A stretch of 64,000 nucleotides of DNA from Psammoneis japonica (GCA_008632985.1 QPGO01000044.1:124001-188000), one strand, 5' to 3'. Numbered from the stretch's first letter, positions 1-56,191 are shown. A program made the numbers and translations. Notes: a model not told the origin generated them from the letters alone.

Positions 1-600
1 CTGCATCCCCGGTGTGTTGGTGAGCACTGCCCATGCTGGACATTGGCAGATCAAGTCCCTGGGTGCTCAGGTCTGTTTGATGCCTGCTCCTTCAGTTCCC
101 AATGATTTTTTGGCTGTGTTGAAATCTCTCCCCAGATGGGAGTCATTGCTGTTTGATGACTTGACTTTGCACCTGTTGGCGTTTGAGATTGCAGACTTGC
201 TGGTTCATCATCGGGCCTCAGTGGGTGGCGATGGATTGGCTCTGAATTTTTGGGGCACATTTGGTTGGACACTCACAGTTGATGGGAATCCATTGGTTGA
301 TTGTGCTGGACTGATGTTTGGTTTTCACCCATTGTCTCATTGCGCTGAAGTGCACAGACTTTTGTCCTTTCTCTGTTTCCTGTTTTGATTGATGGAGTGT
401 TGTTGCAGAACATTTGCCAAAGGTGCAGACATGCATGGTGACAACTCATCACCAGTTCGCAATGTCTCCAATTTTCAGGTGTCACGTTCATCAGAGGCCC
501 GTTTCCATGAATTGTCTTGTGGTCTGACCAATGGACATTGTTGCAGATGGCGTTTGTGAGCACCCATACATGCATTTATTTGTGATTGAATTGTGGCCAT
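1..600 (+). pseudogene. Decayed non-LTR retrotransposon (LINE, diatom Ambal-like) fragment, RNase H N-terminal region
   Basis: ORF 14..388 contains GGDGLALNFWGTFGWTL...CAG..FG..PLSHCAEVH.LLSFL, resembling the SDGS...GTFGW...G...SYRAE.YG.LS motif of LINE RNase H with Y>H/C changes. Clade assigned from motif recall only. Confidence 0.6.
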
Positions 601-2960
601 TTAAAACACGAATCACACCAATTTGCCACAAACAACAGTCGTGATTGAAAACAAACAAATGTCACACCAACCAATGGATGGGCAGCTTGTCAAACAGTGT
701 GGGGAAAGCCACACAATGACAACATTTAAGTGGGTGGTCATTCATTGAGTGAATTCCTCTTGTGTGGCTTATGACTTTATAAGCTGCACAAGGGAAGTTT
801 GTGAGCTGCATGACGCAATGATTCAACAACCTGCTTTGTGCAGCTCACAACTTTATGAGCTGCAAAGGGGAGTTCACAAGCTGCACAAAGCAATGCATTG
901 TGTGCTGCATGATGACAATCGATCAATTGCTCAACTCTTTGTTTGCCACAGCGACATGCACGCAATTTTTTTTTTGGCATGCAGCAAAACGTGGCCACCA
1001 TCAACAACACAAAAATGGAACGTCACCGTTCCAAGTCATTGCAACAGATGGCACCCCCATGCCATGCAGGGTGATCGTCAATGCGGCAAGGTGCATTGTG
1101 ACAGCTTGGTTTGGTTTGTTGTTGCCTTGGCGTTGTTTTTTCACGTCTCATCTTACCTGCTGTCGTGTCGGCATTTCTTGCATGACAACAGGTGCGACCA
1201 ACCAACATTGACAGAAATGGCATCATCATTTTCAGCATCTCACTGGCAGAATCTGGTGGGATGGCAAACAAATTGGTGAGAATGCAACACAGTGCTGTTG
1301 TTCTGTTGCATCAGAGTGTCCTTTTTCCCATTTCACATTCCCTCAGCTTGCTCTTGCTCTTTGTGCTGCTGTTTTTTTTTCTTTTCAGTGCAAAACAACC
1401 ATCTTTTGCGGTGTTGGCAACATGAGCATCAGCAATGTCATGGACATCATGGACATCTCCATGCTTGCGTTCAGCTCCGATGATGCATCCATGGAGGAAG
1501 CCAATTTGGAGTCCGGCGTTGCTCCCTTGGCCTCCAGACAATTGAAGCACCCAAGAAATTGCAAAATAAAAAAAGAGTGAGCAAAGATGATGCCCTTCCT
1601 CAAAACAACACAGGAAAAGACCACATGACGGCTGCAACAGCCAATGCCAGATTTTGCCACCAAACCTTTTCCCACCAACAATGCCAATGCATTGCATGCC
1701 ACATTTTGCTCTGACAAGCACACCCATGAAAAGAGACAGGTGACGATGTTCAAGTCCCAGGTGACGCACAAAAGGACAATCAATTTTGAACACAAATTGT
1801 GCATCTGTCGTGTGTGGAGCAATTGCATGTAAAACACTTAAAGGGAGGAGTTTTTGCAGATGTTTAGAGTGTGAACATTTAATTGGTTTTTTCATTGGCA
1901 TGCAAGTCCTCATGGGACATGTGTCACAAACTCCCTCAGTGGACTCAATGCTGATTTCAAGATTGTGTGCCAGTGCATTGCATGCAGAGATTTGGATGTA
2001 GGAAGAACCCATGCCACAGAGCATTGTAGAAAAATTGTTCATGTTGACTTCAAAACAATGGCAACAATTTTGCCGAAAATCATCCGTTGTGTTGCGATTC
2101 CATTTGTTGCAACAAATGACATGGATTGCACAAAAACAATGACATCGCAACACTCACATGAGTCTTGTCAGTGTTGCAAAACATTTGCATTTGGATGAAT
2201 CCATGCTTTTGGTGGTGACAGCTTGATCGCAAGTTGGGGACCGTGTGAACATCGTGCAAATGTTGTTTTTGTGCACGATTTGGTTCACGTGTGGCTGGAA
2301 CACATCAGGTGAAACAAAGTCCAAAAATGGGTGAAAACTCCTTTTGTGATTTTGTTGTCATCCACAATCTTGAATCTCACAACTTCAACAGCTGATGCTG
2401 CTTTGCCACCAATTTTTTCCCTCCAACAATGCTGACACATGACATGCTTCATTGCACTCAAAAAAGTGCACACATGAGAAAAGAGAGATGAGAGAGAAAA
2501 AGCCCGAAAATGGACAAACACCCCTTCTGAGATTTTTTGCTGATGTTCAGGCTCTTTTCTCAAAACTGTCACATTTCAATTTGTTTGTTCTTGACAGATT
2601 GAAGAGTGTGGAATCTGTCATTCAGACAATGAAGACTTTTCATGCAAATGTCGTTTTTGTGCATGTGCTTTGGTTCGTGCGCAGCTGGAACATGTCAAAA
2701 GGGGAGACAAGGGGCAACTCAAGGGCGCGGAGCATTCATTGTGGCAATCTGCAATCTGCCACTTTTGGAAAAGTCAGGGAACATCTGGCAAATGAGGTCG
2801 TTTTTGTCTCTGAACATTTGGGTGACTGCATGGGTTGCTCGCTGGCTGCAGCGGCACCCACGCAACTTCTTCTTGCAAAGATGTTCATGTGGCTTGGGTT
2901 CCCTCCACCTCTGAACATCAAGACAGCCAACTGAAGCCAAGGGAGGTTGCTCTCTGGCGA

Positions 2961-3122
2961 GGCATTGATTGAAACTTCCAAGGAAGGGAGTGTCTTTCAA
3001 TGCTGTGAGCCCAAAATCTTAGCCACAGCAGGGCTGCAGGTGAGGCATCGATTGAAACTTCCAAGGAAGAGAGTGTCTTTCAATGCTGTGAGCCCAAAAT
3101 CTCAGCCACAACAGGGCTGCAC
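2961..3122. repeat. Tandem duplication, ~83-bp unit x2
   Basis: ggcat(t/c)gattgaaacttccaaggaag(g/a)gagtgtctttcaatgctgtgagcccaaaatct(t/c)agccaca(g/a)cagggctgca occurs at ~2961 and ~3044. Confidence 0.85.
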
Positions 3123-3149
3123 TGCCCTCAAAAGCTGGTGCATGTGGGT

Positions 3150-3500
3150 TGACTGCTCTTGGCATCATGACTGCCACCACCACTGTCAGTTTGACTGCCA
3201 CCATTGCAACTGCTGCCATTGAAACTGGCGCTGTTGTGACTGCTGCCATTTCAACCATTGCTGTTGTGACTGCTGCTGTTTGCCGCTGGCGCCATTGCGG
3301 CTGCTGCCATTTGGACTGCACTGCAACTGCTGCCACTGCTGCAGCCACTGCTGTTGCAACTGCCACTGTGGCAGCCACCATTGTTGGAATTGTGGTTGTT
3401 GCAACAGCCATCATTGTGGCTGCTGGTGCCATTTGGACTTCTGTTGTTGTGACCACTGTTGTCACAGGGCTGGCTGTGAGGAGCTGCAACTGCACCACTG
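3150..3500 (-). repeat. Low-complexity triplet region, probably a decayed Gly/Asn/Ser/(Tyr)-rich coding tract
   Basis: Minus-strand reading DNSGHNNRSPNGTSSHNDGCCNNHNSNNGGCHSGSCNSSGCSSG looks like a G/N/S/Y tract if C/H are read as former Y. Confidence 0.45.
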
Positions 3501-4293
3501 TTTAGACTGTCAAAACGCTCTGCCCACACCAGGTGAAAAATTGCCAACAAATGATGCCCGTTGGTTCGAACAAAATGTCGCGCACCTCCAACAAATGTCT
3601 GTGGGTTCGAATCCAGGGACGTGCATCCAATCAGCATGGTGAAATGAATTCAAGAAGTTTGCACCCACACAAAATGTTCAAGTGGCTGTCTAAAGTGCAG
3701 CTTCTACAATGTAAGAATGCTCAAGTTGGACAACAACAAAATTGTGATCATGGGTTTTTATCTGCCAAACCGCCATCAGCTCCAGCTTGCCGACCTTGGC
3801 ACAGCTCACCGTGTGGGGCCTCCCCCTTGTCACCCAAGTCGTGATCCCCCCCGCTTGCTTTCCATGGCTGCCTGAAATCATTCTGTGCAAATCTTCCCAT
3901 CAACCAAGTTGCTCACTCATGATGTTGCATTTGATCTCCATGACCGGCTCCTTGAAGAACTTGGCTCTCAGCAACCATCCCCTCCCTTGCTCTTCCTTGG
4001 TGCCCTGCATCGTCTCCTCCTGTGCCCTCCTTTGCCAGGCGTGAGTTGCTTGGCACAAAGCACTTGAGCCATTTTGCACACTTTCTCTTCTTTGCAACAG
4101 CCTCCTTTTGCATGAGCCCCTTGTTGGCGATGCTCTCAAGCTCGCTCGCAACACCCATCAGAGATGAGAGTCCCTCTCTCGTCTTGTCCCGCCCCTGTGT
4201 CATTGGAAACAGCCATGCTGCTGGTGTGAGTTTTGAATCTTGAGCAACATCAATTCTCCAACAAAACTTGTGGCAAAGCTTGTCTTTGTGCAG

Positions 4294-4569
4294 TGACAGG
4301 ATTTGAACAGGATTTGGGTGCGCGCAAAGCATCGCGCGCTGTTTAGTTTACCGCGCACAGTTTTGTGTGCTTTAGTTCCGCGCGTTCACGCGCGATGTAG
4401 TTTGCTTTCGAGCCACAAGGCTCACAAGGACAATAACAGCAGCCCGATTGTGCCAACTTACACGTCTTTCGGCTCCTGCAACGGTCTCTGAGCGGAGACT
4501 CATCTGCTGTTTAGACAGCAGCAAGGAGTCATTGTTTGAATTCTTGCCATTTGCCTTCAATTTCTGTCA
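4294..4569 (+). repeat. 5' LTR
   Basis: Direct repeat of 11087-11362 with TG...CA ends; 15 mismatches by manual alignment, no indels. Confidence 0.97.
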
Positions 4570-5508
4570 GATTGACAGTCTTGCTCATTGTCAACCCATT
4601 GAGCAACCGCCATCGTCGTCGTTGATTTACCAACGACGCCACCTTCAATCCCACGTGGACCTCCATGTGTGTTCTACATACATCGGCAAGTCTACGCGCA
4701 TTCAATGCCAGGGCATCGGCAGGAAGTTAACGTCACCGTCAAGTCTCCTTGCCGCTGGACATCTGGATTGATTGTGCTGCCTTTGATCGCTGAAGACATG
4801 TGTTCAACGGTCACATCCAAGTCTGTCCTTGATCAACATCCCTTGACACACCTGTTCCTTGGTTAACGGTCAAGAACCCCGCACATTCAAGGATCTTAGT
4901 CGCTGAAGACACACGCATGTGCACATGTCTTCACGGCCAAGAACCTTTACCCACTCTTAGGACCACGGTTTTGCTGCCACTCCACAAGCACACCGAGTCC
5001 ATTGCACCTGATCTGCCCGGACTGCTGGTGCTCTGCAGTTCCACCAGGTCCACGAGGACGACTGTGAGAGCAAGTGGCCGTGATTGCAGCCTGCGTTGGG
5101 GCGAGGGTGCTTTCCCGCGTTTGTTCGTTCGTCCACAGCGCCTGACGCCTGCGTCAACTGGCCAGCCTGATCGGGAAATCCAACCGACATAAAACAAGAA
5201 CGGTTCGGGGGTCTTGTCCACCTCCAGTCAGCTCACCTGCAGGGGTTTACAACCCGCTGCTCCGCTCGCAAGCAACCCAAAGCGCCGCTGGCTGTGGGTT
5301 CGGACGTGCCTGCACAACTCTACGGACCGGATAGGAAGTTTAGCACTTGACAACGAACGGGACAGCAAAGCCCGGCGACTTCTGATTTTAAGACAGTTCA
5401 AGATTTCAAGTCAAGTCTGTTTCAAGTCAAGTCCATTCTCACCCAAGTTTCGAGTCTGCCTTCGCTTCCCAACCAGAATTGATTGTCCTGACACCACTTT
5501 TGTCTGCC

Positions 5509-8500
5509 ATGGTTCTCACTCGTCAGCAACAAACCGATGGTTTCGAGCACGTTGTTGGAACCGTGCGTGCCCAAGGTGCTGGGAGTCCTCTTCGTTTGGC
5601 TTTGGCCCAAGACGGCACGGACTCGCATCAGGAACCATTCACGTTCACACCGTCCCAAATCGACTCGCTTGAGTGCGACAACGGCACTAATGTGATCCCT
5701 TTGCCCCGTGGTTATAAGAACATGTTAGCAGCACTGGTTGGTCTGTACATTGTCAAAGCACACAAAGGTCTTGACGTTGCCAACGACTCCTCTTTGTTCA
5801 CGCATGACGAGTTCCTTGCCTGCCGCCTCAGCCCCGACTGCATGTCTTCTGTGTCCATCGGCAGCTCACCCCTTGCACCTCCGCATGTCACCAACCCAAC
5901 CAAGGCACGCGACCCGGTGCGGGACTTCAAGTGAGGCATCAAGCGTGATCCCACCGCTTTCACGGCTCTCAAATCCGACAAGCAGTGGCACACTTGGCAC
6001 ACCTCACTTGTGGCACAAGCCCGTGCCCAAGACGTCAAGTGCATTCTAGACTCGTCGTACAAACCGACCAGCCCCGAAGACAAACTGCTCTTTGCTGAAC
6101 AGCAAAAGCACATGTTCGCCGTCTTTGAACGCATCCTTCTCACTGACAAGGGCAAGGCTCTCATTCGCGAAAATGTGGGGTCTTCTGACGCACAGACCGT
6201 CCACCGCGCCTTGTCTGAGTGCGCGCTTGCCTCCACCCGCGCATCTGTCGAGTCCTCCACCCTGCTCACGCACCTTGCCACCGCACGTCTTGGTGATGGC
6301 ACTTGGAAAGGTCCGACCCACGGGTTCATCCTTCATTGGCAAGATCAGTTGCGCAAGTGCGAGGCACTCATCCCGGCCAGTGACCACTTCTCTGAAGGAC
6401 AGAAGCGCGTCATGCTCGAGAATGCCGTGCACCCTGTCAAGGAACTCCGTGCTGTCAAGAACCAAGCTGATCAGCATCGCACGCAGAGTGGCAAGAGCCT
6501 CACACACGATCAATGCTGTGGCTTGCTCCTCTCCGCAGCAGCTCAGTACGACAGCACTTTTCAACCCAAGACGACACCTCGAGCTCCCCGATGCGCCACA
6601 CACGCACACGACGTCTGCTCCGAGGAACCGTCCGACGATGTGTTCTACGACATTGACAGCAACATTGACGTCCTTCAGGCCAATGCTGCCTGCACCCGCG
6701 GTCCCAGCCTCACCGGTGACCAATGGAGACGTCTCCCTCCCGACCACCAACGGATCTGGGATTCGTTGCCCGATTCCTCCAAGGCGATCATCCTTGAGCA
6801 TTCTCGTCTGCCTCCCCGCAACCCGCGAGCCAGTGACTGCCATGAGTCTGTTACGGCCAACCTTCACGACCAACGCCTTGGGAGTGACGGTGATGTCAAC
6901 TTGTCCAACACGACTCCTGCTGACTCTGGTGACTCCGCTCCAAATGTGGACGCCACTTCGGATGATCCCATCCTGGCGCACCTCACCAAGCGCAAGCCAC
7001 TGCCACCCGGTGATCTGCAACGTCTGTTGTCTCCTAACCAAGCCCCCAATGCCAGTCGACCGGGGCCATCCGCCGCTTCCTCTACCCCGCCAGCTTCTGC
7101 AGATGACACAGAACTTAACGGCCGCACTCACCGCCGCGTTGACAACCACAATGTCATTTGCTCTGCCTCTGCTCATCGCTCCACACGCACTGGTGCTCTA
7201 GTCGATCGTGGGGCCAACGGCGGCATTGCTGGCGACGACGTTTTCGTCATTGCACGCACCTCTCGCCAAGTCGATGTTCAGGGCATTGACGATCATCAAT
7301 TGGTGGACATTCCTGTTGTCACCGCTGGTGCCGTCATTGAGACCCAGCGTGGTCCCGTCATCGCCATCCTCCATCAGTGTGCATGCACGGGCAAGGGCAA
7401 GACCATCCATTCCTGCGGCCAGCTCGAATGGCACAAACAGGATGTCAACGATCGCTCTGTCAAGGTGCCCAACGGCTTGCAACGCATTGCCACTCCTGAT
7501 GGCTGTGTCATCCCCATTGACATCAAGGCCGGCCTGCCTTGTGTTGCCATGCGACCTTACACTGACGCCGAATGGGGACACATGGGACCCTTCCGTCCTC
7601 GATCACTCTGTCACTGATGACAACCAGTGGTGCAACGCGATCTCTGACCCACAGGACGATCCCACTGCCAACCTGTTTGACGAACACGGCAACTGCCGTC
7701 ATCGTGTCATTGTCAACGAGACCATCATGTCCGCTTCCTTGTCTGCCGATCACGCGTCCGCCCTCGATGATCACCTCATTCCGAACAACGACGTGTTCTG
7801 CGAGTGTCATCCACATGCGATTGACCCCAAGGGCGATGACGTTCCGCCTCCGGAGCGCACTGTGCAGCCCAAGGACCCCCCCTTCGAGTCTCTTCGGCCT
7901 TGCTTTGGCTTCCTACCTGCCGATGCGGTCCGTTGTGCTTTTGACTGCACCACGCCCGCATGCCCGCCGGTGCACACCTTAGGAAGGCCTGCAAATCACC
8001 CAACCCCGCCCTCAATGTGCACCGCCGCAACGAGCCTGTCGCCACTGACACCGTTTGTGCCGACACCCCGGCCGTCAACTCTGGTTGCACCAGCGCCCAA
8101 CTGTTTGTTGGCACCGAGTCTACCGTCACTGACGTCTGCGGCACTAAGACGGACAAAGAGTTTGTCAACACACTCGAGGATCAGATCCGTGAACGTGGTG
8201 CCCCATCCAAACTCATTAGCGACCGTGCTCAAGTTGAGATCAGCAACAAAGTGCTCGGGATCCTGCGCGCCCTCTTCATCTCCAGCTGGCAAAGTGAGCC
8301 TCACCAGCAACACCAAAACTTTACCGAGCGTCGACACCAGCCCGTGAAGCGCATGGCAAACACTGTCATGGATCGTTTTGGTTCGCCCGCCCACACATGG
8401 CTGCTGGCGCTCATGCACGTGTGCTTCACACTCAACCATGCAGCGTCCCCACGTCTCCACTGGCGCACGCCCCTCGAGACTCTCACTGGCTCCACCCCGG

Positions 8501-11139
8501 ACATCAGCCCATTGCTTCGCTTTCACTGGTGGGAACCCGTGCACTTCCACCTCGATGACTCCGATTGGCCGCCCGAATCCCGTGAGTTGTGTGGACGCTT
8601 CGTTGGCATTGCTGAGCACGTCGGCCACCAGATGACCTTCAAGATTCTATCTGACGAGACTCAGAAGATCCTCCACCGGTCCAACGTCCGCTCCGCTGCC
8701 ACCGATCCTGCTGTTCGAAACCTGCGTCTTGATCCTCCTGATGGGGAGCCACCTGAACCCATCATCAAATCTTGCCATGACGACAACCCCGTCGATTCTC
8801 CTGATGGGGAGATCAGGACACCCAAGATGCCAGTTTTCGATCCGCAAGACATCATTGGACGTACCTTCCTCATGCAGCCACAAGAGGACGGACAACGCCA
8901 CAGAGCTCGCATCGTCAAGGCCGTTGAAGACCACGAATGGAAAGTGAACGGCAATCCCGAGCTCACTAAGTTCGTCTGCTCTGTCAACAATGACGAATAC
9001 GAGGAAGTCCTTGCCTGCAATGACATTATGAATCACATTGAGCAAGAAGACAAAGACACTGCCATTTGGAAATTTCGACGCATCGTGTCACACGAAGGAC
9101 CTCTGAAGCCTCACGACCCAACCTGGAAAGGCTCAAGCTGCAACATCATGCTTGAATGGGAAAGTGGGGAGATCACGTCCGAGCCTCTTGCCATCATTGC
9201 CAAGGACGACCCCGTCACCTGTGCCATCTACGCACGAGAGAACGGACTCCTCGACACGGATGGCTGGAAGCGGTTCCGCACCATCGCGAGGCGCCAAAAG
9301 AAGCTGTTTCGCATGGCCAACCAAGCCAAGCTTCGCTCCTTCCGCACTGCACCTTGCTGCAAGTACGGATGCGAAGTTCCCCGGAACTGCAAACACGCCA
9401 TGTCACTAGACGAACGCAACGGCAACCGCAAGTGGGGAGATGCAACTAATCTCGAGATGGACCAACTCGACGAATACGAAGTCTTCCATGACTGCGGGCC
9501 CTTCAAGTCTTCCACTCCTCCTGCGGGACACAAGAAGATCCGAGTGCACCTGGTGCACGACGTGAAACACGACGGTCGCCACAAGGCACGACTCGTAGCC
9601 GACGGGCACCTCACGGACGTGCCTGTCGACAGTGTCTACTCCGGAGCAGTCTCCCTCCGTGGCCTTCGGCTGATGATTTTCCTGGCCGAACTCAACGAGT
9701 TGGAGACATGGGCCACCGACATTGGCAATGCCCACCTTGAAGCCACCACCAAGGAGAAGCTTTACATTGTAGCCGGACCCAAATTTGGCAAACTCGAAGG
9801 ACACATCCTTGTAATCCACAAGGCACTGTATGGACTGCGCAGCTCCGGTCTCCGCTGGCACGAGCGCTTCGCCGACTGCCTGCGAGCTGAAGGCTTCTTC
9901 CCCTGCCGCGCCGAACCCGACATTTGGATGCGCAGGAACGGCGACCACTGTGAATGCATTGCCGTTTATGTGGATGACCTCGCCATTTCCATGAAGGACC
10001 CTCAATCTTTCGTCGACACTCTCACGGAAAAGTGCAAGTTCAAGCTCAAGGGTGCGGGACCCATTGAGTTCCATCTGGGTTGCAACTTTTCCCGGGATCC
10101 CGACGGAACCTTGTGCCTGTCTCCGCGCAAGTACATCGAGCGCATGGTCGACAGCTGCGCCCGACTGTCTGGGGAGAAACCCACCACCAATGCCCTGTCA
10201 CCTCTGGAGAAGGGTGACCACCCCGAACTGGACACTTCCGAACTGCTGGGACCCGATGGCATTCACAAGTTCCAGTCTCTTGTTGGTTCACTCCAATGGG
10301 CAGTGTCCCTTGGTCGAATTGACATTGCCACGGCCGTCATGTCACTCTCTAGCTTCCGAGCTGCGCCCCGTCAAGGCCACTTGGATCGTGCCAAACGCGT
10401 CTGTGGGCACCTCTCCAAGATGCAACACGGTGCTCTCCGCGTTCGCACGGAAGAGCCCGACCATTCGGATCTCCCTGCTCTGGCCCATGAGTGGATGCAT
10501 TCCGTGTGTGGCAAAGCAGAAGAGATGATCCCGAAGGACGCTCCACCGCCCCTTGGCAAGTTTGTCACTGCCACCCACTGCGTCAATGCAAACTTGCACC
10601 ATTGCATGCTCACCGGACGCTCTGTCATGGGAATGCTCCGCTTCCTCAACAAATTCCCGGCTGATTGGTTCTCTAAGAAGCAAGCCACCATGGAGACTGC
10701 GACCTGCGGGTCTGAATTTGTTGCCGCAAGGACTTGTGTTGAGCAGATTGTCGACCTGCGCATCACCCTGCGCTGCCTTGGCGTCCCGATCCGTGATGTT
10801 GGTCACATGTTCGGTGACAACAAGTCGGTTGTAGACAGTGCCACCATCCCGCACTCCAAGTTACACAAGCGACACACTGCACTGTCGTTCCACCGTGTGC
10901 GTGAGGCAATTGCCTCTGGTTGCCTTGAGCTCCACTTCATCGAAGGCTCCCGCAACCCTGCTGACATTCTCAGCAAGCATTGGGGTTGCTCCCAAATCTG
11001 GGACCTTCTCTGCCCCCTCATGTTCTGGAACTTCATTCCATCCGAAGTCGAATCTGTTTCTGTGACTCCTCAAGCAAACTGGGGAGTGACAGGATTTGAA
11101 CAGGATTTGGGTGCGCGCGAAGTGTCGCGCGCTGTTTAG
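5509..11139 (+). pseudogene. gag-pol polyprotein pseudogene (gag, protease, integrase, RT, RNase H)
   Basis: Gag FK*GIKRDP (TGA at 5932-5934, likely from CGA). Protease LVDRGANGG. Integrase VATDT...LISDRAQ...SEPHQQHQN..ER. RT HKARLVA, KALYGL, YVDD. RNase H SEFVAA, GDNKS, NPADILSK. Frame breaks near 7578 and 7950. Confidence 0.93.
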
Positions 11140-11362
11140 TTTGCCGCGCACAGTTTTGTGTGCTTTAGTTCCGCGCGTTCACGCGCGATGTAGTTTGCTT
11201 TCGAGCCACAAGGCTCACAAGGATGATGACAGTAGCCCGATTATGCCGACTTGCACGTCTTTCGGCTCCTGTGACGGTCTCTGAGCGGAGACTCATCTGC
11301 TGTTTAGACAGCAGTGAGGAGTCATTGTTTGAATTCTTGCCATTTGCCTTCAATTTCTGTCA
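11087..11362 (+). repeat. 3' LTR
   Basis: Copy of the 5' LTR, preceded by the PPT and followed by the TSD. Confidence 0.97.
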
Positions 11363-11927
11363 TGCAGCACACCTGTTTTGTCCGGTCATTTTGCGCCAAG
11401 CATCAGTGCGGCGCTCAGAAAAGCTTCTTCTTCGACACAAGAACTCTTGCCTTGATGATGTCTCTGCCAGACTTTTGATCATCAGCCATCCACTTGCTTG
11501 GATTGGTCTGTCTCTGAGGCACAGTTGCAACAATTCTTTGTTGGTTTTTGTGTCATGTGTTTGCCTGCACTTGCCATGGCCATGCACTGCTTTGCACACC
11601 GTCACAAGCCGGCCATCCCTTTTTTGTGTTGTCTCTTGAGTCTCAAAACTTGTCCTTGTGCAGCACACCTGTTTTGTTGCACAAAGTGTGAGTGTGATGC
11701 TCAGAAAAGCCTCTTCTTTGACACAATCTCTTACCTTGATGATGTCTCTGCCAGCCTTTTGATCATCAGCCATCCACTTGCTTGGACTGGTCTGTCTCTG
11801 AGGCACAGTTGCAACAATTCATTGTTGGTTTTTGTGTCATGTGTTTGCCTGCACTTGCCATGACCGCGCACTGCTTTGCACACCATCACAAGCTGGCCAT
11901 CCCTTTTTTGTGTTGTCTCTTGAGTCT
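11363..11927. repeat. Tandem duplication (~284-bp period); the copia is inserted in the first unit
   Basis: 11451-11643 matches 11735-11927. The empty site cttgtc(t/c)ttgtgcag|cacacctgttttg is intact at ~11649-11676 and split by the copia at 4293/11363. Confidence 0.85.
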
Positions 11928-13644
11928 TGTGGAGCAACGGTTGTCTTTTTCCCCTCTTTGTGTTTTTTTTGCTTGCCTGAAAAGGGTGCTTCCCCTGCAT
12001 TTTTTATTTGGCTGCACATCTGCACTCAAATTTAAACACACCCTCCATCCTAAAATGAGAACCATTTTTCTGCATGATTTCTGCATGGCTCATGTACAAG
12101 GAAAATGTGCTTTCACCGACCTCTTGAGTCGTTGACCGTGATGACCATGATGCGGCATGTTCGGGTTGATTTCCGAGTCTCACAGAGTGAAAATCACCGA
12201 TGAGTCATGTGATGCAACCATGACAGCGAATGTGTGTCATCAGATGCAGTGCATCCCATGCTGAAGGCGTGTTTTGCTGCCAATTCATTGACCAGCCATC
12301 TCAACAATCAATCATGAACTCACCGCTTGTGTTGAAAGGAAGGAGCCTGTTCTTTTTTGTCATTGTTGGTTGTTGTTTCATGGTGACCATGTGTGCTTCA
12401 TAAAAGGTGGAATGAGCATCAACGCCATCACATTTCATTGTCACGGTGGGGTTGAGTTGTTTGGCAGCTCTTGATGATGCATGCAGCACAGTCTTGTGCA
12501 GAGAATCCATGGACTCCTCGTCATGCTGCTTTCGCAGTTCTGCACTGATTCACAAAAAACACAGGGGATTGGATCTGCAGATCACAAGTGGAAGGGACAA
12601 ATGCCCTGCACACAATTGGTTGGACAAGTGCTGCAAACAGAACATTGTGAGTGGTGGGGAGGATGGGTTGTTGAGGGGGAAAACAGAAAAAAGGTGAAAA
12701 TTTTGCTGAGTGATTGACACCCATCATGAAGACGGAAATGCAGCACTTTTGGCGGAAATGCACACACAATGTGAAAATGAACATGTTTCAGTTGGAACAA
12801 AATGCAAACATTCAGAGACACCAGAGCAATGCTGCCATGTTGCTTGGCATGTTGGCATTCAAGTCAACAAGTGCACATTGAATGAATGCATCCAGGAGCA
12901 ACAAGCACAAAATGTGCCAATCAGGATGGCAAAAACAAATGAAAATGTTGCACTCCCAACAAGTGAATGTTGATTTCAATCTGCAGGGGGGTTGACCAAT
13001 GTTTGCACACGTGCACACACCATGAGATGGTGGGGTTTTATGACCTGTGACTCATGGCCTTTTCTGCGGGTCTCTGATGTTGTTCGGTGGATGACAAGGC
13101 CATTCAAATTGCCAGGGATTGTTGCCAATGACGTCACATCACAAAAACTCTCTCCACTGACTGGGACCTTGTGCACAAAAGTTTTCACTCCATGTGGCAA
13201 ATTTGTGAAGCACCAGACAATGATCAGACCGGTGCCAAGGTTGCTGTCCACTGGGTCATCAGAGCGCACATTGTGGTGATCAACACCTCCCTTCTCACAA
13301 AGATGTTCATTCCTTTCATTGTCAAAATTGTCACAGTTTCAAACCTCATTGGTTGTGTGGCTGGCAACAATTGTTTGTCTGTCAAAGTTGAGCAAGTTTG
13401 CTGTGGAGCCCTCTTCTTAACTGCAAGAAATCAACATCAACTGTCAAGCATCCTCCCTTTTCCCTGTCAGTGTGCATGTGTTCTTTTGCTGTAGAAGCTG
13501 ACAATCAATTTCATTTGTTCATCTGATGTTGCACATTGATTTCCACATTTAACGTGACATGTGCAATGAATTTGTGCCACTTTCCTCAATGAACAATGTG
13601 TTGTTGCTTTTCCTTTTTCACATGGATTGTCAATTGATGCTGAG

Positions 13645-14379
13645 TCAATGCTGTGGCACTGGCCACATTGCATTTTTAACTGGCCTGCACTGGAGTTGCT
13701 CTTTGGTCACCTTTGTTGTTGTCTTCTTTGCTCTCTTTGTCTTCCTCCTCATCTTTTCTGTTGCCAGGTTTGTCATCTGTTTTGTCTTCCTCCTCCTCAT
13801 TGTTGCAGAAAGCTCCATCATTGCTTGTGTTCTCGTCTCTGTCTCCACTGGTTTTTTGTTGGTTCTGCCCTTTTTCCTTTGCCTTTGCTCTCCCTTTTCT
13901 TTCCATTGGGTGTGCCATGTGTTGAACTGCACACACGGCTTACTTGCCCTGTCCTCCTTCACCTCCCCAAGCAGGGAATTGAATTGCTTTGTTCCTTCAT
14001 CCTTCCAAGAGTCACGCTGTCTTGTTGGGTCTGCGTGCAAGGTCACTGGTTTTGTTTCCTCCTCCTCCTCTTTGCTCCCTTTGTCCTTGCCTTCTTGCAT
14101 TGCCTTGTGCTCCCAAACTTTCCAGCAGTTTTCCAACATCAACAGTGCCAGCGACTCATTGCTTGCTGCAGCTGGCTCTGCAGCCTTGGTGCTGCCAGAC
14201 TCCACTGTCCTTCTCCACATTGCAGTGCTCTTCATGAATTTTAGAATGTTGTCATAGAACCATGTGCATGCCTCCTTGTTTGTTTGCTTCTTGACGGGTT
14301 CCAGTCCGAGGCGGGACTCCATGTGACATTTCGCCCACAGAATTCCACGTGCAAGCTTTGCAGCAAATTTGTCAAGCAA
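13645..14379 (-). pseudogene. Decayed transposon accessory ORF
   Basis: SNESLALLMLENCWKVW...SWKDEGTKQFNSL resembles the SDEAFALL.LEN.W...GWS.EG...FN.L motif I associate with ORFs beside Plavaka-type transposases (recall, unverified). Confidence 0.45.
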
Positions 14380-15504
14380 TGAAAATGTGAATGATTGCCA
14401 ACAGAAAAATGGGCAATTTTACAAATGCATCTCCTCCTTCACACTTGGAGCCTGTCATCAACAGTTTGCCCAGGTGTGTTCTGCAGACATCAAAGAACAC
14501 ACCCGGCACATTTTCATTCTCACAAATGTTGAAAAAATGGAAAGCCTTTGGCTTTACAAAACTGGGAGCATGAAACAATTTCGTGGAATGTCACATGCAG
14601 AAATGTGTGTGCGTGACATGTGACGCGATCCAAAAAACTGTTGATGTCACAGTTCAGCAGTGCAAGGTCCCACCTGGAGCTGGAGTGTGTCTTCACACAC
14701 AATGGTTTCCACTGTCTCATCCTCCCAAGTTGCCAGGAACTGTTCTTCAATGTCTGCTTTGGCCTTTTTGCACTTCTTGGGTTTTTGGCTTTCTTTGTGG
14801 GTTTCTTCCTCCTGTGGATTTCCTTGGCTTTTTCCACTGTCATCATGGCTGCAGCTGTGGGTGCAGGGATGCCACATAAATCCCATTGAGACAAATTTTC
14901 TTGGATCAAAACGAGAGTTGCCTTGGTTGATGGAGGGTGTCACGGCGGTCTTAAAATGGGGGGCAACTTTTTCATTTGCCGTGTGTTTGTCGATGACGAG
15001 ATCAATGAAGTGACTGCCATTTTCCCGTGCTTTGCCATGTGATCACGACTGAAAATGTTTTGATTTTTCAAAAATCCTGCCATCACTCATTTGCAGCTTT
15101 GGAATGTTGCTGCAAATTTTGTCATGCCAACACTGGCCAATGACAAAAGCAGAGGCTCTCGCGTCTCTGACAATGTGTCTGCCAAGTTGCCTGACTCTGC
15201 AGTTGGAAAGAACGTGAAGTGGCACTTTTGTTGCTTTTGTCAGAGGTTCCGGCAAATCCGTTGAAACTGCATTGCAGGCCAGGCCAGTTTGGAAGGTGCG
15301 CACACATTGGGTGCATTTGAACATGTTGTTGTGAAGCAACAAAAGGCCAATGTGTCAACAGAAATTGGAAATTTATTTGAAGAAAGGAATGTCCACATAA
15401 TTTAAATTGCACCAAGCACCTGAGTGTGCATGTTAAACTGTCATTGCGCGTTCATCATGTGAAAAATGTTCATCATTGCAGACAAATTTGTGGGAAGTAA
15501 AGCG

Positions 15505-15610
15505 CTGAAACTGTCACATGGTTTCAATGGAAATCCGTTGAAACTAAAAATGTTGAAACTGCACAGTTTCAATGGATTTCTGTTGAAACTGGAAATCCAT
15601 TGAAACTGAA
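15505..15610. repeat. Cluster of short palindromic GTTTCAAYGG(A)AATCCGTTGAAAC units
   Basis: gtttcaatggaaatccgttgaaac at 15521, gtttcaatggatttctgttgaaac at 15566, plus TTGAAACT half-sites. Confidence 0.8.
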
Positions 15611-15990
15611 AAATGTCAAAGGGTGCAAACCCCTTTATTTTCATCTTGATTTCAATCCTCATTTGATTGTTTTCAGATTTTTAAGATCGACACAAGACAA
15701 TTCTGAGCTCACCACACAAACAGTGCAACAATGGCCAAAATGTTGTTCTTTCAATGCCATGGAGGAGGGTTCTTGAGTGTCTTTTTTGATGTCATGGCTC
15801 AAGATGCAAAAGACTGTCATTTTGTGAAGAAAGACACTGGCCACCCTTCTACATTCTTGAGATCGAACAGCTTTTTGGCCATCATCATGTTGTTTGCACA
15901 CTGAGTGCAGAACGTGGTGTGATGTTTTTTCCAGAATCACGTCACAAATGATTAAAACCTCAGTTGATTTTTGATGCTTTTTACAAACAC

Positions 15991-16093
15991 AGTTTCAACA
16001 AAGGTCCGTTGAAACTAAAACGTTGAAACCATGTGGTTTCAACAGAAATCCGTTGAAACTAAATCCATCGAAACCAAAAACATTGAAGCTAAA
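15991..16093. repeat. Second cluster of the same palindromic units
   Basis: agtttcaacaaaggtccgttgaaact at 15991, gtttcaacagaaatccgttgaaac at ~16036, plus half-sites. Confidence 0.8.
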
Positions 16094-18407
16094 TGTTTGC
16101 TGGCAAAGAAAGTGCAACAAGCATGATGATGAGCAAATGACATCCACATTGATGGCAAATAATTGCATCATGGCAAAAACTTTGCACTTTCAATGGATTT
16201 GCCGGAACCTCCCACACTTCACCATGCAATCACGACTGAAAATCCTTGATGACTGTTTGCAGTTTTGGAATGTCATTGCAGCCATCATGACACCAAAAGT
16301 GACCAATGTCAGTTGTAGAATCTCTCACGTCTCTGACAATGTGTCTGCCACCACAGCTGCAGCTCCGGTTGCAGAGAATGATCAACAGCATCTTCTTGCT
16401 TTTCCCGCACTTTGCCATGTAAAAACCTGCCATTTCAAATTGCACGCCCATTTCACGGTGATGCTGAGGCAGGTCGCAGGTCCCATTTTCCAACTGCATT
16501 CTCAACTCTACATTTTTTGTCCTTTCTGCCACACTGCCTGGAGCAACAGTCTGATTCTTCCCATTTGTCCTCTTCAATTTCAAAGTCTGAATCCTCATCA
16601 TTGTCACTCTCCTCGACATCCGTTGTTGCTTTTTCCTTGCTTGTGTGGGGGCGCTGTGTCAGTGTGGGCTGCAGACTGTTGTGAGCAACACTGCGCATTT
16701 TAAAAGTGAGAACAGATGGCATGCTTGGCATCAAAGCAAGTTTTGACCTGGTCTTTTAATGACAGCTTTTGGAACCACACATTGCAGTTTTGGTTTCATC
16801 GCCATGATGCCGTCCACATTCCTCCAATGCCAGCAAAAGGTGGCATGCACTGATGCCACTTCCACAAGAGCATGCCATTTGCATCTTGGCAGCAATGTCA
16901 ACCACAGCACAGTTTTAAAAAAATGTCCAGAAGCTCTTGTGTTGGTTTCAGTTTCAACCAATTGTCCGCGTGGATCCAATGTGAGTGATTCCTTCTCATC
17001 TGCAACTTGCAACATCACCTTCATGCCCATTGCGCAAACAGGATCTCATGCTTGAGGCAATGGATTGGAGCCACCAAACAGCTCCAAGTCTTTTGTGCTC
17101 ATGGCTCTTGTTGGTTCTGTCTCATGTGGTCCGCCCGCCTTGACCCACTCTTCCAAACTGCCCTGCACTAAAAATGAAATGACGCATCGTGACTCATGGA
17201 CTGGAGTGGACCCTCCTTGCCACAAACAACAATCTGTGTGGTTCACAGACGTCGATGAAGAGCCAAGGTGAGTGCGAGACAGACGAGGCACTTTTTCTTG
17301 TGGGAGGAACAACTTGCATGGTCTGAATTGGTGCTTTGAAGCTCAGAAGGCTGATTTGGTTGTTGCTTGGCAAAGGCTGTGGTGGGAGATGGAAGCTTGG
17401 GCTTGTGTGTTGTGACTGCACGTTGAGTCTTGTGAATTGTGATGGTGACACTTTTCTTTTTGTCATGACGTTGACGACCACCATGGTCCATTTGGGCAGA
17501 GAGGTGGATTTTTCTAAAAAAACAGCACCTGCATGATTTCTGCAGTGTCCCCACCCATGGCAGCAAAACGAGAATCTTGTTGGCAGCACCACACCCAATC
17601 TCGTTTTGGAAATGCATCCCGCAGCACTTGCCGCTGATTGCACTCTTCATTGTTGTCTGACACACGGTGTTTCTTTTTGTGTTGATTGCATTGATGGAGG
17701 ATGCACTTCTTCACCCAGTCCTCCCATGATCCTGCCCACTCGCGTGCACTGAATTTGCCATCGGCCATGTTTTTTCATGTTGGCTGTGACACCTTGCCAC
17801 CACTCACCATGTCTGCCTTCATGAGGGGTTGCGTTTTTGGGAACAGCTCTCTCCGTGCCACCTCTTCCACCTCTCTCTTCAGCGATTGGTGATCACCAGC
17901 AGCTCCTGCCCATTGCAATGCCACTGTTGGCCTTGGGCTGTTTGGCAGTGCCTCTGCCACTGCCCTCTCCTTCGCAGCCTTCTTCCTTGCCATTGCCTTT
18001 GACTCAACAAAGTGTTGTGTTGAGTGCTTGCCCTTGTTGCAATCTTGTTTTGCAGCAGGTCATCACAGGAAGACTGCAGTTGCAAAAATTTCAAACCCTC
18101 TCTCTTGACACTCAAAATGTGATGCTCCTTCCAATGATTCTGCACTTTGACCAGCATTGCTTTCGAAAACAATCACAATCAAAAATGTGTGAGTTTCCCA
18201 TTAAAAACAACATCCTTGGTTGTGTTTGCACCAATTTCAGCCATCAAATGTTCAGTTCAAACAGCACTTGTGAATGTCAATGATGACAAATTTGATGTTT
18301 GGGTTTGTCATTGACTTTCAAACTTGCAACCATTGCAGACACACACATGATCATCAACACCCACAAAAGCTTTGACTTTTGGCATGAACTGTTGTGCATC
18401 AAGCCCT

Positions 18408-25580: not shown

Positions 25581-25845
25581 GTCATTGTCAGCCAGCTGTC
25601 CAGCAACAATGGACTCAGATTCCTCTGCAACAAGTGCAATTCATTGTCAGTGGTGACTGCACTGCCTGGCATCGAAAGGATGTCATTGTCAGCCGGCTGT
25701 CCAGCAACAACGGATTCAGATTCCTCTGACAACAAGTGCAATTCATTGTCAGTGGCGACCACACTGCCTGGCAGTGACAGCATGTTGTTGTTGGCCAGCT
25801 GTCCAGCAACAATGGACTCAGATTCTGCCAACAATGAGTGCAATT
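25581..25845. repeat. Tandem repeat, ~102-bp unit x2.6
   Basis: Units start at 25581, 25682 and ~25784. The minus strand reads as a 34-aa repeat ESESVVAGQ.A.N..LS.PGS.V.TDNELHLL. Confidence 0.85.
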
Positions 25846-26742: not shown

Positions 26743-27046
26743 CAATGTTCTTGAATTGGCAGACAACTGTTGCTGGAGCTGACAGATGAAAGTCTCTTGC
26801 CAGAAATGATGGGATTTTTAAATGGTCCATGTGCACAGCAGGGATGCCTGTGCTTCCACCACCACCTGTTGCGATGTTGTCCCAGGGCCTGTGTCAATGT
26901 TCTTGAATTGGCAGAGAACTGTTGCTGGAGCCAACAGATGAAAGTCTCTTGCCAGAAATGATGGGATTTTTACATGGTCCATGTGCACAGCAGGGATGCC
27001 TGTGCTTCTGCCACCACCTGTTGCGATGTTGTCCCAGGGCCTGTGC
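26743..27046. repeat. Tandem duplication, 152-bp unit x2
   Basis: caatgttcttgaattggcaga...cccagggcctgtg starts at 26743 and at 26895. Confidence 0.9.
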
Positions 27047-30840: not shown

Positions 30841-30849
30841 CACATTGCC

Positions 30850-56152: not shown

Positions 56153-56191
56153 ATCGCATATTCTCAAACTCCGTAAAACAGCTCTCCTGCT

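What the first reader, a model, noticed from the sequence alone, without database searches (positions are those of the whole stretch)
4294..11362. LTR pair shows the mutations are post-insertion, double-stranded and confined to YpR sites
LTRs are identical at integration. Manual alignment of the 276-bp LTRs gives 15 mismatches at 11 dinucleotides, all transitions, with no indels or transversions. Five sites are TA vs TG/CA (e.g. tttacc/tttgcc, attgtg/attatg). Four are CA vs TG (aagcat/aagtgt, ggacaa/ggatga, ctgcaa/ctgtga, cagcaa/cagtga). Two are CG vs CA. About 19 CpGs are intact in both LTRs against only 4 TAs, so the CA/TG doublets are best explained as independent opposite-strand hits on an ancestral TA. 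The element is young by background divergence yet heavily mutated, so LTR-identity dating would overestimate its age.
Basis: partly seen in the sequence, partly recalled or inferred. Interest (0 to 1): 0.9.

Follow-up and report, generated by a model that had tools for sequence, protein, structure and literature searches.

The report
TpA-erasing hypermutation of a diatom retrotransposon
A young Copia-type jumping gene in a diatom genome has been riddled, after it landed, by mutations that turn nearly every TA into TG or CA, a kind of repeat-directed hypermutation that I could not find described anywhere.

Summary
It is a 276-bp LTR pair (4294-4569, 11087-11362) with an intact 5-bp target duplication. 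The LTRs differ at 15 positions in 11 YpR dinucleotides: all transitions, no indels, no change at 132 non-YpR positions.

The element is a Ty1/Copia retrotransposon of a diatom. It lies in gene-free blocks where TpA (o/e 0.03-0.1) and CpG (0.1-0.4) are nearly erased and CA/TG are in excess. Gene blocks next door, including their intergenic DNA, are normal, and the edges are about 200 bp sharp.

Protein conservation gives the direction. Of 33 conserved Tyr (TAY) columns, 24 are now Cys (TGY) or His (CAY). Of 48 conserved Arg columns (almost all CGN), 1 went to Cys. Of 68 conserved His/Gln/Cys/Trp columns, none flipped. So TA→TG/CA is real and roughly ten times faster than CpG decay here.

The claim that all four CA/TG doublets come from TA is not settled. 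The two CG/CA sites are plain CpG decay. One doublet fits TA. Three have a 3' LTR product (TGA) that the context rule disfavours.

Two metagenome contigs show the same signature; 72 relatives do not. Eight literature searches found no description.

The parts
4289..4293 (.). Target-site duplication TGCAG, left copy
   Evidence: Identical 5-mer on both sides of the element.
4294..4569 (+). 5' LTR, 276 bp, TGACAG...CTGTCA. It carries CA at 7 of the 11 variable sites, including the two CpG-to-CpA changes at 4326 and 4455.
   Evidence: Other copies have G at 4326 (98% of depth) and at 4455 (96%).
5509..7584 (+). First part of the polyprotein (gag to integrase side). It is collinear with residues 1-687 of an intact 1845-aa homolog. 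There is one in-frame TGA at 5932-5934, in a column where 13 of 18 aligned homologs have Arg.
   Evidence: tblastn against P0004, P0015 and P0054. Stop codon and conserved columns.
7556..7954 (+). Middle piece, read in a different frame. There are two frameshifts relative to intact homologs, near 7576 and near 7950.
   Evidence: Contigs of other copies break off at 7575-7577 in all four runs, and one contig carries 7 extra bases at 7950.
7948..11031 (+). Reverse transcriptase side of the polyprotein (open frame 7960-11139, 1059 aa), with Pfam RVT_2.
   Evidence: RVT_2 E 2.5e-28. 62-67% identity to intact homologs.
11076..11086 (+). Purine-rich run (ends GGGGAG) abutting the 3' LTR. It is a polypurine-tract candidate.
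   Evidence: Sequence read. Not tested further.
11087..11362 (+). 3' LTR, 276 bp. It carries TG at 7 of the 9 non-CpG variable sites and CA at none.
   Evidence: 5' LTR CA 5 / TG 1 against 3' LTR CA 0 / TG 7, Fisher P 0.005.
11363..11367 (.). Target-site duplication TGCAG, right copy
1..31200 (.). TpA- and CpG-depleted block that holds the element. Outside the element TA o/e is 0.01-0.14 per kb and CG o/e is 0.2-0.4.
35800..44700 (.). Second depleted block. At its left edge (35800-36200) TA is already gone while CG is still normal.
57600..59200 (.). Third depleted block
44800..57500 (.). Normal-composition gene block: kinesin 47017-50133 (+), PAP2_3 52476-53726 (-), ankyrin 54090-55697 (+). 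It serves as the internal control.
   Evidence: Pfam hits. Its intergenic DNA has TA o/e 0.71 and CG o/e 1.02.

Best explanation
What it is. The stretch is a single insertion of a Ty1/Copia-type LTR retrotransposon in a diatom nuclear genome. It belongs to a family with very many copies there.

What is shown. After insertion it was hit by a block-specific mutation process that converts TpA into TpG or CpA. These are A:T-to-G:C transitions, seen as A-to-G on either strand.
- The process depends on the neighbouring base. 5'-TAY-3' (equivalently 5'-RTA-3' on the other strand) is hit most, TAG less, and TAA hardly at all. TTAA therefore survives.
- The process acts in gene-free blocks with edges about 200 bp sharp.
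- It spares neighbouring genes and their intergenic DNA.
- In this young element it has removed about 70% of the TAs that can be checked, against about 2-10% of CpGs.
- A slower, ordinary-looking CpG-to-TpG/CpA decay runs in the same blocks. It is strongest at TCG/CGA and weakest at GCGC.
- The 15 LTR differences are the local read-out of these two processes: at least 2 CpG events, the rest TA-linked or unresolved.
- Also shown: the polarity (TA is ancestral), the context rule for survival, the block restriction, and the fact that the LTR differences arose after the LTRs were made.

What is inferred.
- The cause is a chromatin-targeted chemical change at TpA in silenced repeat DNA. It is either deamination of adenine in 5'-TAY-3', or a modified thymine in 5'-RTA-3' that miscodes as C.
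- Its effect is to cripple transposons, by destroying Tyr codons and TA-containing signals.
For: Anatomy.

Host. Every named hit of the neighbouring kinesin is a diatom, best 53-55% identity.

Copy number. 13,638 contigs of run X1 lay on the element. Summed depth is 44,000-370,000, against about 786 in the flank, where single contigs have depth about 60.

Polarity, from columns where at least 80% of homologs share one residue (60 homologs for pol; 26 for the N-terminal half):
- Tyr: 33 columns, 27 changed (17 Cys TGY, 7 His CAY, 3 Phe).
- Arg: 48 columns, 43 of them still CGN. 3 changed, 1 to Cys.
- His+Gln: 44 columns, 1 changed (His to Arg).
- Cys+Trp: 24 columns, 0 changed.
- Tyr against Arg: Fisher P 3.5e-12.

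Cross-codon changes: t|ATN to t|GTN 3 of 3; t|ACN 2 of 3; t|AGN 1 of 2; t|AAN 0 of 2. c|GAN to c|AAN 2 of 27.

Other copies. They hold TA in 9-89% of depth where this copy has CA or TG, at 10 listed places such as 4652 (89%) and 4667 (76%). They hold CG in 95-100% where this copy has CA or TG, at 7 places.

Composition:
- Depleted blocks: TA 206, CG 572, CA+TG 7627 in 34,633 bp.
- Gene blocks: TA 835, CG 1120, CA+TG 3047 in 20,703 bp.
- Element: TA 71, CG 490.

Context.
- The share of TA left, relative to the gene blocks, is ATAT 2%, ATAC 2%, GTAC 3%, CTAG 21%, TTAG/CTAA 38%, TTAA 107%. This fits a sum of two per-strand terms.
- Conserved Tyr codons give Cys 10: His 2 after C, 2: 0 after T and 5: 5 after a purine, as A-to-G at TAY predicts.

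Block restriction. Intergenic DNA in gene blocks has TA o/e 0.71 and CG o/e 1.02. TA counts jump 0 to 9 per 200 bp at 44,600/44,800.

Repeat pairs inside the window. 9 pairs in depleted blocks have 56 CA/TG doublets and 61 single YpR changes. 3 pairs in gene blocks have 0 doublets.

Independent data.
- Of 71 related metagenome loci of at least 2 kb, median TA o/e is 0.69.
- Two loci, L032 (TA o/e 0.02) and L006 (0.33), show Tyr to Cys/His at 18 of 28 and 10 of 25 aligned Tyr.
- The window shows 39 of 58.
- The 72 other loci show 143 of 2793, maximum 14%.
Against: - No chemistry was observed. No modification, enzyme or de novo event was seen.
- The ancestral LTR could not be rebuilt. The read-laying table showed 40 of 546 variable places, and only 3 of the 11 LTR sites.
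- Four 3' LTR products (TGA at sites 4431-2, 4435, 4479-80, 4522-3) go against the context rule if their ancestor was TA.
- At two internal doublets (4801-2, 5075-6), 91-96% of family depth has CA where this copy has TG. Independent decay from TA does not predict this without subfamily structure.
- The preceding-base effect on Cys versus His is weak at conserved columns (P 0.085). It disappears when a single homolog is the reference (P 0.80).
- The gene blocks are only a proxy for the ancestral composition of the depleted blocks.
- The runs that hold the element come from one sample and may be the source of the assembly. No contig matched the left flank exactly at 4164 and 4210-4211.
Confidence: 0.68

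Rival explanations
1. Ordinary 5-methylcytosine decay alone. All doublets and TA sites descend from methylated CpG, through CG to TG or CA and on to TA.
For: CpG decay does occur here. Two LTR sites (4326, 4455) and 5 further listed places have CG in 95-100% of other copies. CpG o/e is 0.1-0.4 in the blocks. Diatom transposons are known to be CpG-methylated (PMC9998398, passages read). Three doublets share the YR-A context of the two proven CGA-to-CAA sites.
Against: Conserved Tyr codons, which never held a CpG, are the main casualties (24 of 33 to Cys or His). 43 of 48 conserved Arg columns are still CGN. TA is depleted, not enriched. The element keeps CG o/e 0.89 with TA o/e 0.21. Three double hits among about 10 CGA sites, at the 7-8% per-site rate seen in the coding part, are very unlikely. 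Doublet 4330-1 is not CG-dominated in the family.
Confidence: 0.05
2. The LTR differences are not in-place mutations of this insertion. They were copied in by ectopic gene conversion from other, differently mutated LTR copies.
For: LTR depth is 215,000-369,000 against about 60 for a single-copy contig, so donors abound. All 7 TA-linked differences in the 3' LTR point the same way (TG), Fisher P 0.005. They include four products that the context rule disfavours, as if inherited together as one haplotype. At site 4330-1 both alleles are common in the family.
Against: The intact target duplication excludes unequal crossover, but not conversion. Family variation includes 74 transversion places of 541, yet the pair shows none of 15. 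That is weak evidence, P about 0.1 by my arithmetic. Conversion would still move alleles made by the same TA-directed process, so it changes the 'where', not the 'what'.
Confidence: 0.15
3. Editing of the RNA or cDNA before or during integration (ADAR- or APOBEC-like restriction), rather than mutation of resident DNA.
For: Each copy carries its own pattern. Retroelement editing is well known in animals (PMC4866542 and PMC2873906, seen as search listings only).
Against: - Both LTRs are copied from one template, so editing before integration leaves them identical. Here they differ at 11 sites.
- Both strands are affected.
- The flanks outside the target duplication are even more depleted (TA o/e 0.07).
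- Tandem and dispersed duplicates made in place differ by the same YpR changes.
- The blocks have sharp edges unrelated to element ends.
Confidence: 0.07
4. Assembly or base-calling artefact at chemically modified bases, so that the TA losses are not in the DNA.
For: Only 57% of the sampled 31-mers of the element were found in the best run. At 7275, 7622, 8341 and 10169 no contig supports the window's letter. No contig matches the flank exactly at three places.
Against: - Contigs built from exact 31-mers, up to 315 kb long at depth about 60, show the same CA/TG/TA polymorphism among copies. 3258 of the 13,638 laid contigs are at least 99% like the window.
- The LTR pair has no indel, and a 1059-aa frame is open.
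- Two unrelated metagenome contigs show the same Tyr-to-Cys/His signature.
- About 95% loss of TA over 30 kb is far beyond known error rates. That error-rate figure is recalled, not tested.
Confidence: 0.03
5. A genome-wide TA-to-TG/CA mutation bias that selection hides in genes.
For: TA is mildly low everywhere (o/e 0.47 in long gene ORFs).
Against: 4848 bp of intergenic DNA between genes has TA o/e 0.71 and CG o/e 1.02, and the edges are about 200 bp sharp.
Confidence: 0.02

Closest known systems
Repeat-induced point mutation (RIP) of fungi
   Same: Transition hypermutation that riddles transposon copies after they are in the genome. It has a dinucleotide context preference, acts on either strand, creates composition-skewed gene-poor blocks beside normal genes, and makes LTR dating unreliable.
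   Different: The polarity and target are opposite. RIP is C:G to T:A, mainly at CpA, and enriches TpA. Here the change is A:T to G:C at TpA, and TpA is erased. No evidence here for repeat sensing or for a link to meiosis. RIP is known only in fungi; diatoms have a RID-related DNMT4 of unknown function (PMC9998398, passages).
CpG decay by deamination of 5-methylcytosine
   Same: It runs in the same blocks and yields the same products (TG/CA). It explains 2 of the 11 LTR sites and the CpG depletion. It is context dependent (TCG/CGA most affected, GCGC least).
   Different: It cannot touch TA. It is about ten times slower than the TA loss in this element.
Editing of retroelements by ADAR (A-to-I on RNA) or APOBEC (C-to-U on cDNA) in animals
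   Same: Clustered transitions in retroelement copies. The A-to-G direction and a 5' U/T neighbour resemble ADAR (the neighbour preference is recalled, not tested).
   Different: Those act before integration and leave the two LTRs identical. They are single-stranded in outcome. ADAR's 3' preference is for G (recalled), whereas here it is for pyrimidine. Here the flanks and in-place duplicates are affected too.
Hypermodified thymine (5-hydroxymethyluracil of dinoflagellates, base J of kinetoplastids)
   Same: A thymine modification reported to favour T before A. That preference is recalled; the papers were seen only as listings. If such a base miscodes as C, it would give T-to-C at TpA in marked chromatin.
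   Different: No such base is reported for diatoms in the library searched. No mutational footprint of this kind is described for those organisms, to my knowledge.
tRNA adenosine deaminases (TadA/ADAT2-3) and their DNA-acting relatives
   Same: The natural substrate context is U-A-C/N in the anticodon loop, which resembles 5'-TAY-3'. That family is related to DNA cytosine deaminases. Both points are recalled.
   Different: This is purely an analogy. No such gene was looked for, because no genome is held.

Membership tests
Ty1/Copia LTR retrotransposon | Two direct long terminal repeats with TG...CA termini | tested here: met
   276-bp LTRs, TGACAG...CTGTCA.
Ty1/Copia LTR retrotransposon | 5-bp target-site duplication | tested here: met
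   TGCAG on both sides.
Ty1/Copia LTR retrotransposon | Copia-type reverse transcriptase (Pfam RVT_2) | tested here: met
   E 2.5e-28, 99.7 bits against a cut-off of 31.6.
Ty1/Copia LTR retrotransposon | Integrase upstream of reverse transcriptase | tested here: inconclusive
   The element is collinear with residues 1-1834 of an intact 1845-aa homolog. Pfam found no integrase domain in the window's frames at E up to 0.001, perhaps because of the mutations.
Ty1/Copia LTR retrotransposon | Primer-binding site and polypurine tract | tested here: inconclusive
   A purine run ending GGGGAG abuts the 3' LTR. No tRNA match to the primer site was attempted.
RIP (fungal repeat-induced point mutation) | C:G to T:A transitions, mostly CpA to TpA, with TpA enrichment | tested here: not met
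   TpA o/e is 0.03-0.1. Tyr TAY became TGY or CAY.
RIP (fungal repeat-induced point mutation) | Triggered by sequence duplication, during the sexual cycle, needing a RID-type methyltransferase | not testable with these tools
   No genome is held. The family is high-copy, but repeat dependence was not testable.
5mC-driven CpG decay | CpG to TpG/CpA, with the ancestral CG seen in other copies | tested here: met
   4326, 4455, 4665, 4860, 5295, 7275 and 7622 have CG in 95-100% of family depth. This accounts for a minority of the changes only.
5mC-driven CpG decay | Accounts for all YpR changes | tested here: not met
   Tyr against Arg contrast, P 3.5e-12.
ADAR/APOBEC editing before integration | The two LTRs share the edits, and the edits lie on one strand | tested here: not met
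   The LTRs differ at 11 sites. Both TG and CA products occur.

The most novel reading that the evidence does not exclude
Some diatoms run a genome defence that is the mirror image of fungal RIP. An enzyme is targeted to silenced repeat chromatin and edits DNA at TpA: it either deaminates adenine in 5'-TAY-3' or modifies thymine in 5'-RTA-3' into a base read as C. This rapidly erases Tyr codons, TA-rich signals and TAA/TAG stops from transposons, an order of magnitude faster than methyl-CpG decay. If the adenine route holds, it would be, as far as I know, the first natural DNA adenine-editing system used against transposons in a eukaryote.
Probability: 0.3. Interest if true: 0.95.

Novelty: new variant of a known kind. 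Interest (0 to 1): 0.82.

Why it matters
Repeat-directed hypermutation is known as a cytosine phenomenon: RIP, methyl-CpG decay and APOBEC editing. Here an equally strong process acts on A:T pairs at TpA. It has a clear context rule and sharp chromatin-like borders, and it occurs in diatoms, a major phytoplankton group.

If it holds genome-wide:
- It points to an unknown DNA modification or editing activity, possibly of interest as a natural A:T-to-G:C editor.
- It explains why such blocks are full of long false ORFs, since TAA and TAG vanish.
- It invalidates LTR-divergence dating and Kimura-distance repeat landscapes in these genomes.
- It gives a simple sequence test, the Tyr-to-Cys/His ratio against intact relatives, for finding the process in other organisms. 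Two metagenome contigs already pass that test.

Tried and rejected
- Dinoflagellate host. A recalled spliced-leader motif gave 3 matches with up to 3 mismatches, against 4.3 expected by chance. Rejected; the kinesin hits name diatoms.
- The WD40 gene as a taxon marker hit mostly cyanobacterial repeat proteins and was uninformative.
No whole genome is held.
- Earlier findings of this scan: none.
- Rebuilding the ancestral LTR failed four ways:
  - A 21-mer of the LTR gave 0 matches in the metagenome, genome and viral contig collections.
  - A 131-aa frame through the LTR has no true relatives among 1.84 billion representative proteins, only 2 weak hits.
  - A purine/pyrimidine-coded search of the window found only 20-60-nt chance matches.
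  - tblastn found no other Copia remnant in the window.
- No RNA holder was listed for the element, so transcripts could not be used.
- Large-scale strand asymmetry: TG against CA per kb stays within |z| of 2.5 in the depleted blocks. Strand patches of kb size are not supported.
- Dependence of Cys versus His on the preceding base, with one homolog as reference: not significant (P 0.80).
- 20 of the 43 frames of 150 aa or more in the depleted blocks were scanned against Pfam. None hit, so the origin of the older blocks is unknown.
- Direct CA-to-TG flips as the general source of doublets: 0 of 68 conserved His/Gln/Cys/Trp columns flipped.
- TGA to TAA to CAA in the 5' LTR: t|GAN to t|AAN occurred at 0 of 25.
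Full report
**1.

The repeat finder returns one direct pair, 4287-4569 and 11080-11362, at 94% identity. Alignment and a script place the LTRs at 4294-4569 and 11087-11362. Each is 276 bp, with termini TGACAG...CTGTCA. A perfect 5-bp duplication, TGCAG, lies at 4289-4293 and 11363-11367.

The LTRs differ at 15 of 276 columns: 15 transitions, no transversion, no gap.
- TA/TG: 4
- TA/CA: 1
- CA/TG: 4
- CG/CA: 2

19 CpGs and 4 TpAs are intact in both LTRs.

144 of 276 positions lie in a YpR dinucleotide. Eleven independent sites all falling there has P = 8e-4. The 132 non-YpR positions carry no change, which puts pairwise divergence below 2.2% at 95%.

**2. What the element and its host are**

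- The frame 7960-11139 holds Pfam RVT_2, E 2.5e-28. It has 1761 relatives; the best are about 66% identical, unnamed proteins from metagenomes.
- Against intact 1845-1851-aa homologs the element reads in three pieces: 5509-7584, 7556-7954 in another frame, and 7948-11031. That means two frameshifts.
- There is one in-frame TGA at 5932, in a column where 13 of 18 aligned homologs have Arg.
- Contigs of other copies break off at 7575-7577 in all four runs. At least that lesion is therefore private to this copy or to a minority.
- Host genes in the window are a kinesin, a PAP2 protein, an ankyrin protein, a WD40 protein and an MSP-domain protein.
- Every named relative of the kinesin is a diatom, at 53-55% identity at best. 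The host is a diatom without a close named relative.
- No whole genome is held.

**3. The surroundings are the real surprise**

| Region | TA o/e | CG o/e | CA/TG o/e |
|---|---|---|---|
| 1-31 kb, 36-44.7 kb, 57.6-59.2 kb (2-kb windows) | 0.03-0.1 | 0.1-0.4 | 1.7-1.9 |
| Gene blocks | 0.5-0.8 | about 1.0 | |
| The element | 0.21 | 0.89 | |

- Intergenic DNA between the genes (4848 bp) has TA o/e 0.71 and CG o/e 1.02.
- The edges are sharp. TA per 200 bp goes 0 to 9 at 44,600/44,800 and 5 to 0 at 57,400/57,600.
- At some edges (35,800-36,200; 59,000) TA is gone while CG is still normal, as in the element.
- This excludes a genome-wide bias masked by selection in coding sequence.

**4. Polarity**

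I used columns where at least 80% of homologs share one residue (60 homologs for pol; 26 for the N-terminal half).

| Conserved residue | Columns | Changed in this copy |
|---|---|---|
| Tyr | 33 | 27 (17 Cys TGY, 7 His CAY, 3 Phe) |
| Arg | 48 | 3 (1 to Cys); 43 are still CGN |
| His + Gln | 44 | 1 (His to Arg) |
| Cys + Trp | 24 | 0 |

- Tyr against Arg gives P 3.5e-12.
- So TA is the ancestral state and TG/CA are the products.
- CpG decay is about ten times rarer here, and direct CA/TG flips are rare.
- Cross-codon TAs behave alike: t|ATN to t|GTN 3 of 3, t|ACN 2 of 3, t|AGN 1 of 2, t|AAN 0 of 2.
- CpG decay is seen at c|GAN to c|AAN (2 of 27) and c|GTN to c|ATN (3 of 20).

**5. Other copies**

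One search found four runs of one sample that hold the element. Their contigs were laid on 4000-11000 at 80% likeness.

- 13,638 contigs of X1 were laid; 3258 are at least 99% alike.
- Summed depth is 44,000-370,000, against about 786 in the flank.
- Places of change by kind in X1: 467 transitions and 74 transversions.
- Only 40 of 546 variable places were printed.

At the printed places (context read):
- The family has CG in 95-100% of depth where this copy has CA or TG (4326, 4455, 4665, 4860, 5295, 7275, 7622).
- The family has TA in 9-89% where this copy has CA or TG (4652, 4667, 4669, 4814, 4847, 4849, 4884, 4912, 4919, 4921).

TA is thus decaying in most copies, while CpG is mostly kept.

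**6. Context rule**

Relative to the gene blocks, the share of YpR sites that are still TA is:

| Context | Share left |
|---|---|
| ATAT | 2% |
| ATAC/GTAT | 2% |
| GTAC | 3% |
| ATAG/CTAT | 7% |
| CTAC/GTAG | 10% |
| GTAA/TTAC | 13% |
| ATAA/TTAT | 15% |
| CTAG | 21% |
| CTAA/TTAG | 38% |
| TTAA | 107% |

- A sum of two per-strand terms fits all ten classes. The term is about 2 for T, 1.7 for C, 0.8 for G and 0 for A as the base 3' of the adenine.
- Which base changes follows from the Tyr codons. After C the outcome is Cys 10: His 2, after T it is 2: 0, and after a purine 5: 5. This is what A-to-G at 5'-TAY-3' predicts. The alternative assignment predicts the opposite; for the codons after C, P is about 2e-4 by my arithmetic.
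- The four TAs intact in both LTRs sit in TTAG x3 and GTAG, which are slow contexts.
- CpG loss is also context dependent: 79-83% at CGA/TCG and 22% at GCGC. This matches the LTRs, whose surviving CpGs are mostly in GCGC runs.

**7. The LTR sites one by one**

- Sites 4326 and 4455 (CG/CA) are CpG-to-CpA changes in the 5' LTR. The family has G at 98% and 96%.
- Doublet 4330-1 has T 54% and G 45% in the family. That is a CA/TG/TA mix, unlike any true CpG site, so a TA origin fits.
- The TA/TG sites at LTR positions 57 and 167 (TAC) and the TG/TA site at 157 (TAT) fit the rule.
- The doublets at 4431-2, 4479-80 and 4522-3, and the TA/TG site at 4435, lie before an A.
  - There the 5' LTR product (CAA) fits a TA origin.
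  - The 3' LTR product (TGA) is the disfavoured one, four times over.

The alternatives also fit poorly:
- A CGA origin needs three coincident double hits at a per-site rate of 7-8%. Other true CpG sites showed up in all four runs, and these did not. That is an argument from a truncated table, so it is weak.
- TGA to TAA to CAA in the 5' LTR is not seen elsewhere (0 of 25).
- Direct flips occurred at 0 of 68 columns.
- Conversion of the 3' LTR from another copy would explain why all 7 of its TA-linked states are TG, against CA 5: TG 1 in the 5' LTR (P 0.005). It cannot be tested here.

**8. Generality and controls**

Repeat pairs inside the window:

| Pairs | CA/TG doublets | CpG-type singles | TA-type singles | Other transitions | Transversions |
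|---|---|---|---|---|---|
| 9 in depleted blocks | 56 | 46 | 15 | 62 | 80 |
| 3 in gene blocks | 0 | 6 | 5 | 21 | 37 |

78 related Copia loci were fetched from metagenomes.
- The 71 loci of at least 2 kb have median TA o/e 0.69 and CG o/e 0.85.
- Their 14 direct-repeat pairs have 94 YpR-type events, 89 other transitions and 140 transversions. Some pairs are 100% identical terminal overlaps.
- With one intact homolog as reference, Tyr aligned to Cys or His is 39 of 58 in the window and 143 of 2793 in 72 other loci (maximum 14%).
- It is 18 of 28 in L032 (TA o/e 0.02) and 10 of 25 in L006 (TA o/e 0.33).
- Arg to Cys/His/Gln/Trp/stop is not raised: window 6 of 109, L032 4 of 52, others 367 of 4901.

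The signature therefore exists in independent assemblies and is absent from most relatives.

**9. Artefact and other rivals**

- Exact-word contigs up to 315 kb long show the same polymorphisms. The pair has no indel, and the two metagenome contigs concur. An artefact is unlikely.
- Editing before integration cannot make the LTRs differ. It also cannot deplete the flanks or the in-place duplicates.
- Strand bias at the kb scale is small.

**10. Mechanism and literature**

Shown:
- A block-restricted A:T-to-G:C process at TpA, acting after insertion.
- It has a 3'-pyrimidine preference.
- It is at least about 35 times faster than the background rate. TA hazard per copy is 0.4-1.3, against less than 0.011 per site (my arithmetic).
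- It is about ten times faster than CpG decay.

Inferred: a chromatin-targeted chemical change, either adenine deamination at TAY or a miscoding modified thymine at RTA.

Literature:
- Eight full-text searches found no description of TpA-directed hypermutation of repeats, in diatoms or elsewhere. All papers were seen as listings only, except PMC9998398.
- I read passages of PMC9998398. Diatom transposons are CpG-methylated through DNMT5a. A RID-related DNMT4 of unknown function is widespread in diatoms. No RIP is reported.
- Subscription journals, and bioRxiv supplements that I could not see, may hold relevant data.

Noticed in passing
window 11382-11927: Directly after the 3' LTR lies a tandem repeat of about 286 bp (11413-11643 against 11699-11927, 94% identity). 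Its copies differ mostly by CpG-type and TA-type changes.
   Followed up: partly
window 28433-30143 and 40760-42269: A dispersed repeat pair of 1.7 kb, 92% identical and then 79%. It has 43 CA/TG doublets, and the first copy more often carries CA. It could be the LTRs of a large old element or two copies of one.
   Followed up: partly
window 1-31200, 35800-44700, 57600-59200: With TAA and TAG nearly gone, the depleted blocks hold 43 stop-to-stop frames of 150 aa or more on both strands. 20 were scanned against Pfam and none hit. Gene finders would over-call here.
   Followed up: yes
L032 (1-2766) and L006 (1-2561): Two metagenome contigs carry related but different Copia families (about 70-73% nucleotide identity). 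They show the same TA erasure and Tyr-to-Cys/His signature. L032 has 3 TAs left, in CTAT, TTAG and CTAG.
   Followed up: partly
window, depleted blocks: TTAA is not depleted at all (1.55 against 1.44 per kb). GCGC CpGs are the best-preserved CpGs (22% loss against about 80% at CGA/TCG).
   Followed up: partly
window 35800-36200 and 59000-59200: Short stretches at block edges have lost TA (0-1 per 200 bp) but keep normal CpG (12-18 per 200 bp). TA loss seems to come first, or to spread further.
   Followed up: no
window 59001-60000 and 47001-48000: These have the strongest TG-versus-CA skews in the window (-0.30 each, z -3.8 and -3.5). The second lies in the kinesin gene. Unexplained.
   Followed up: no
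window 4000-4293: The left flank is itself a repeat, matched by about a dozen diverged contigs. At 4164 and 4210-4211 every contig differs from the window, and the latter is again a CA/TG doublet.
   Followed up: no
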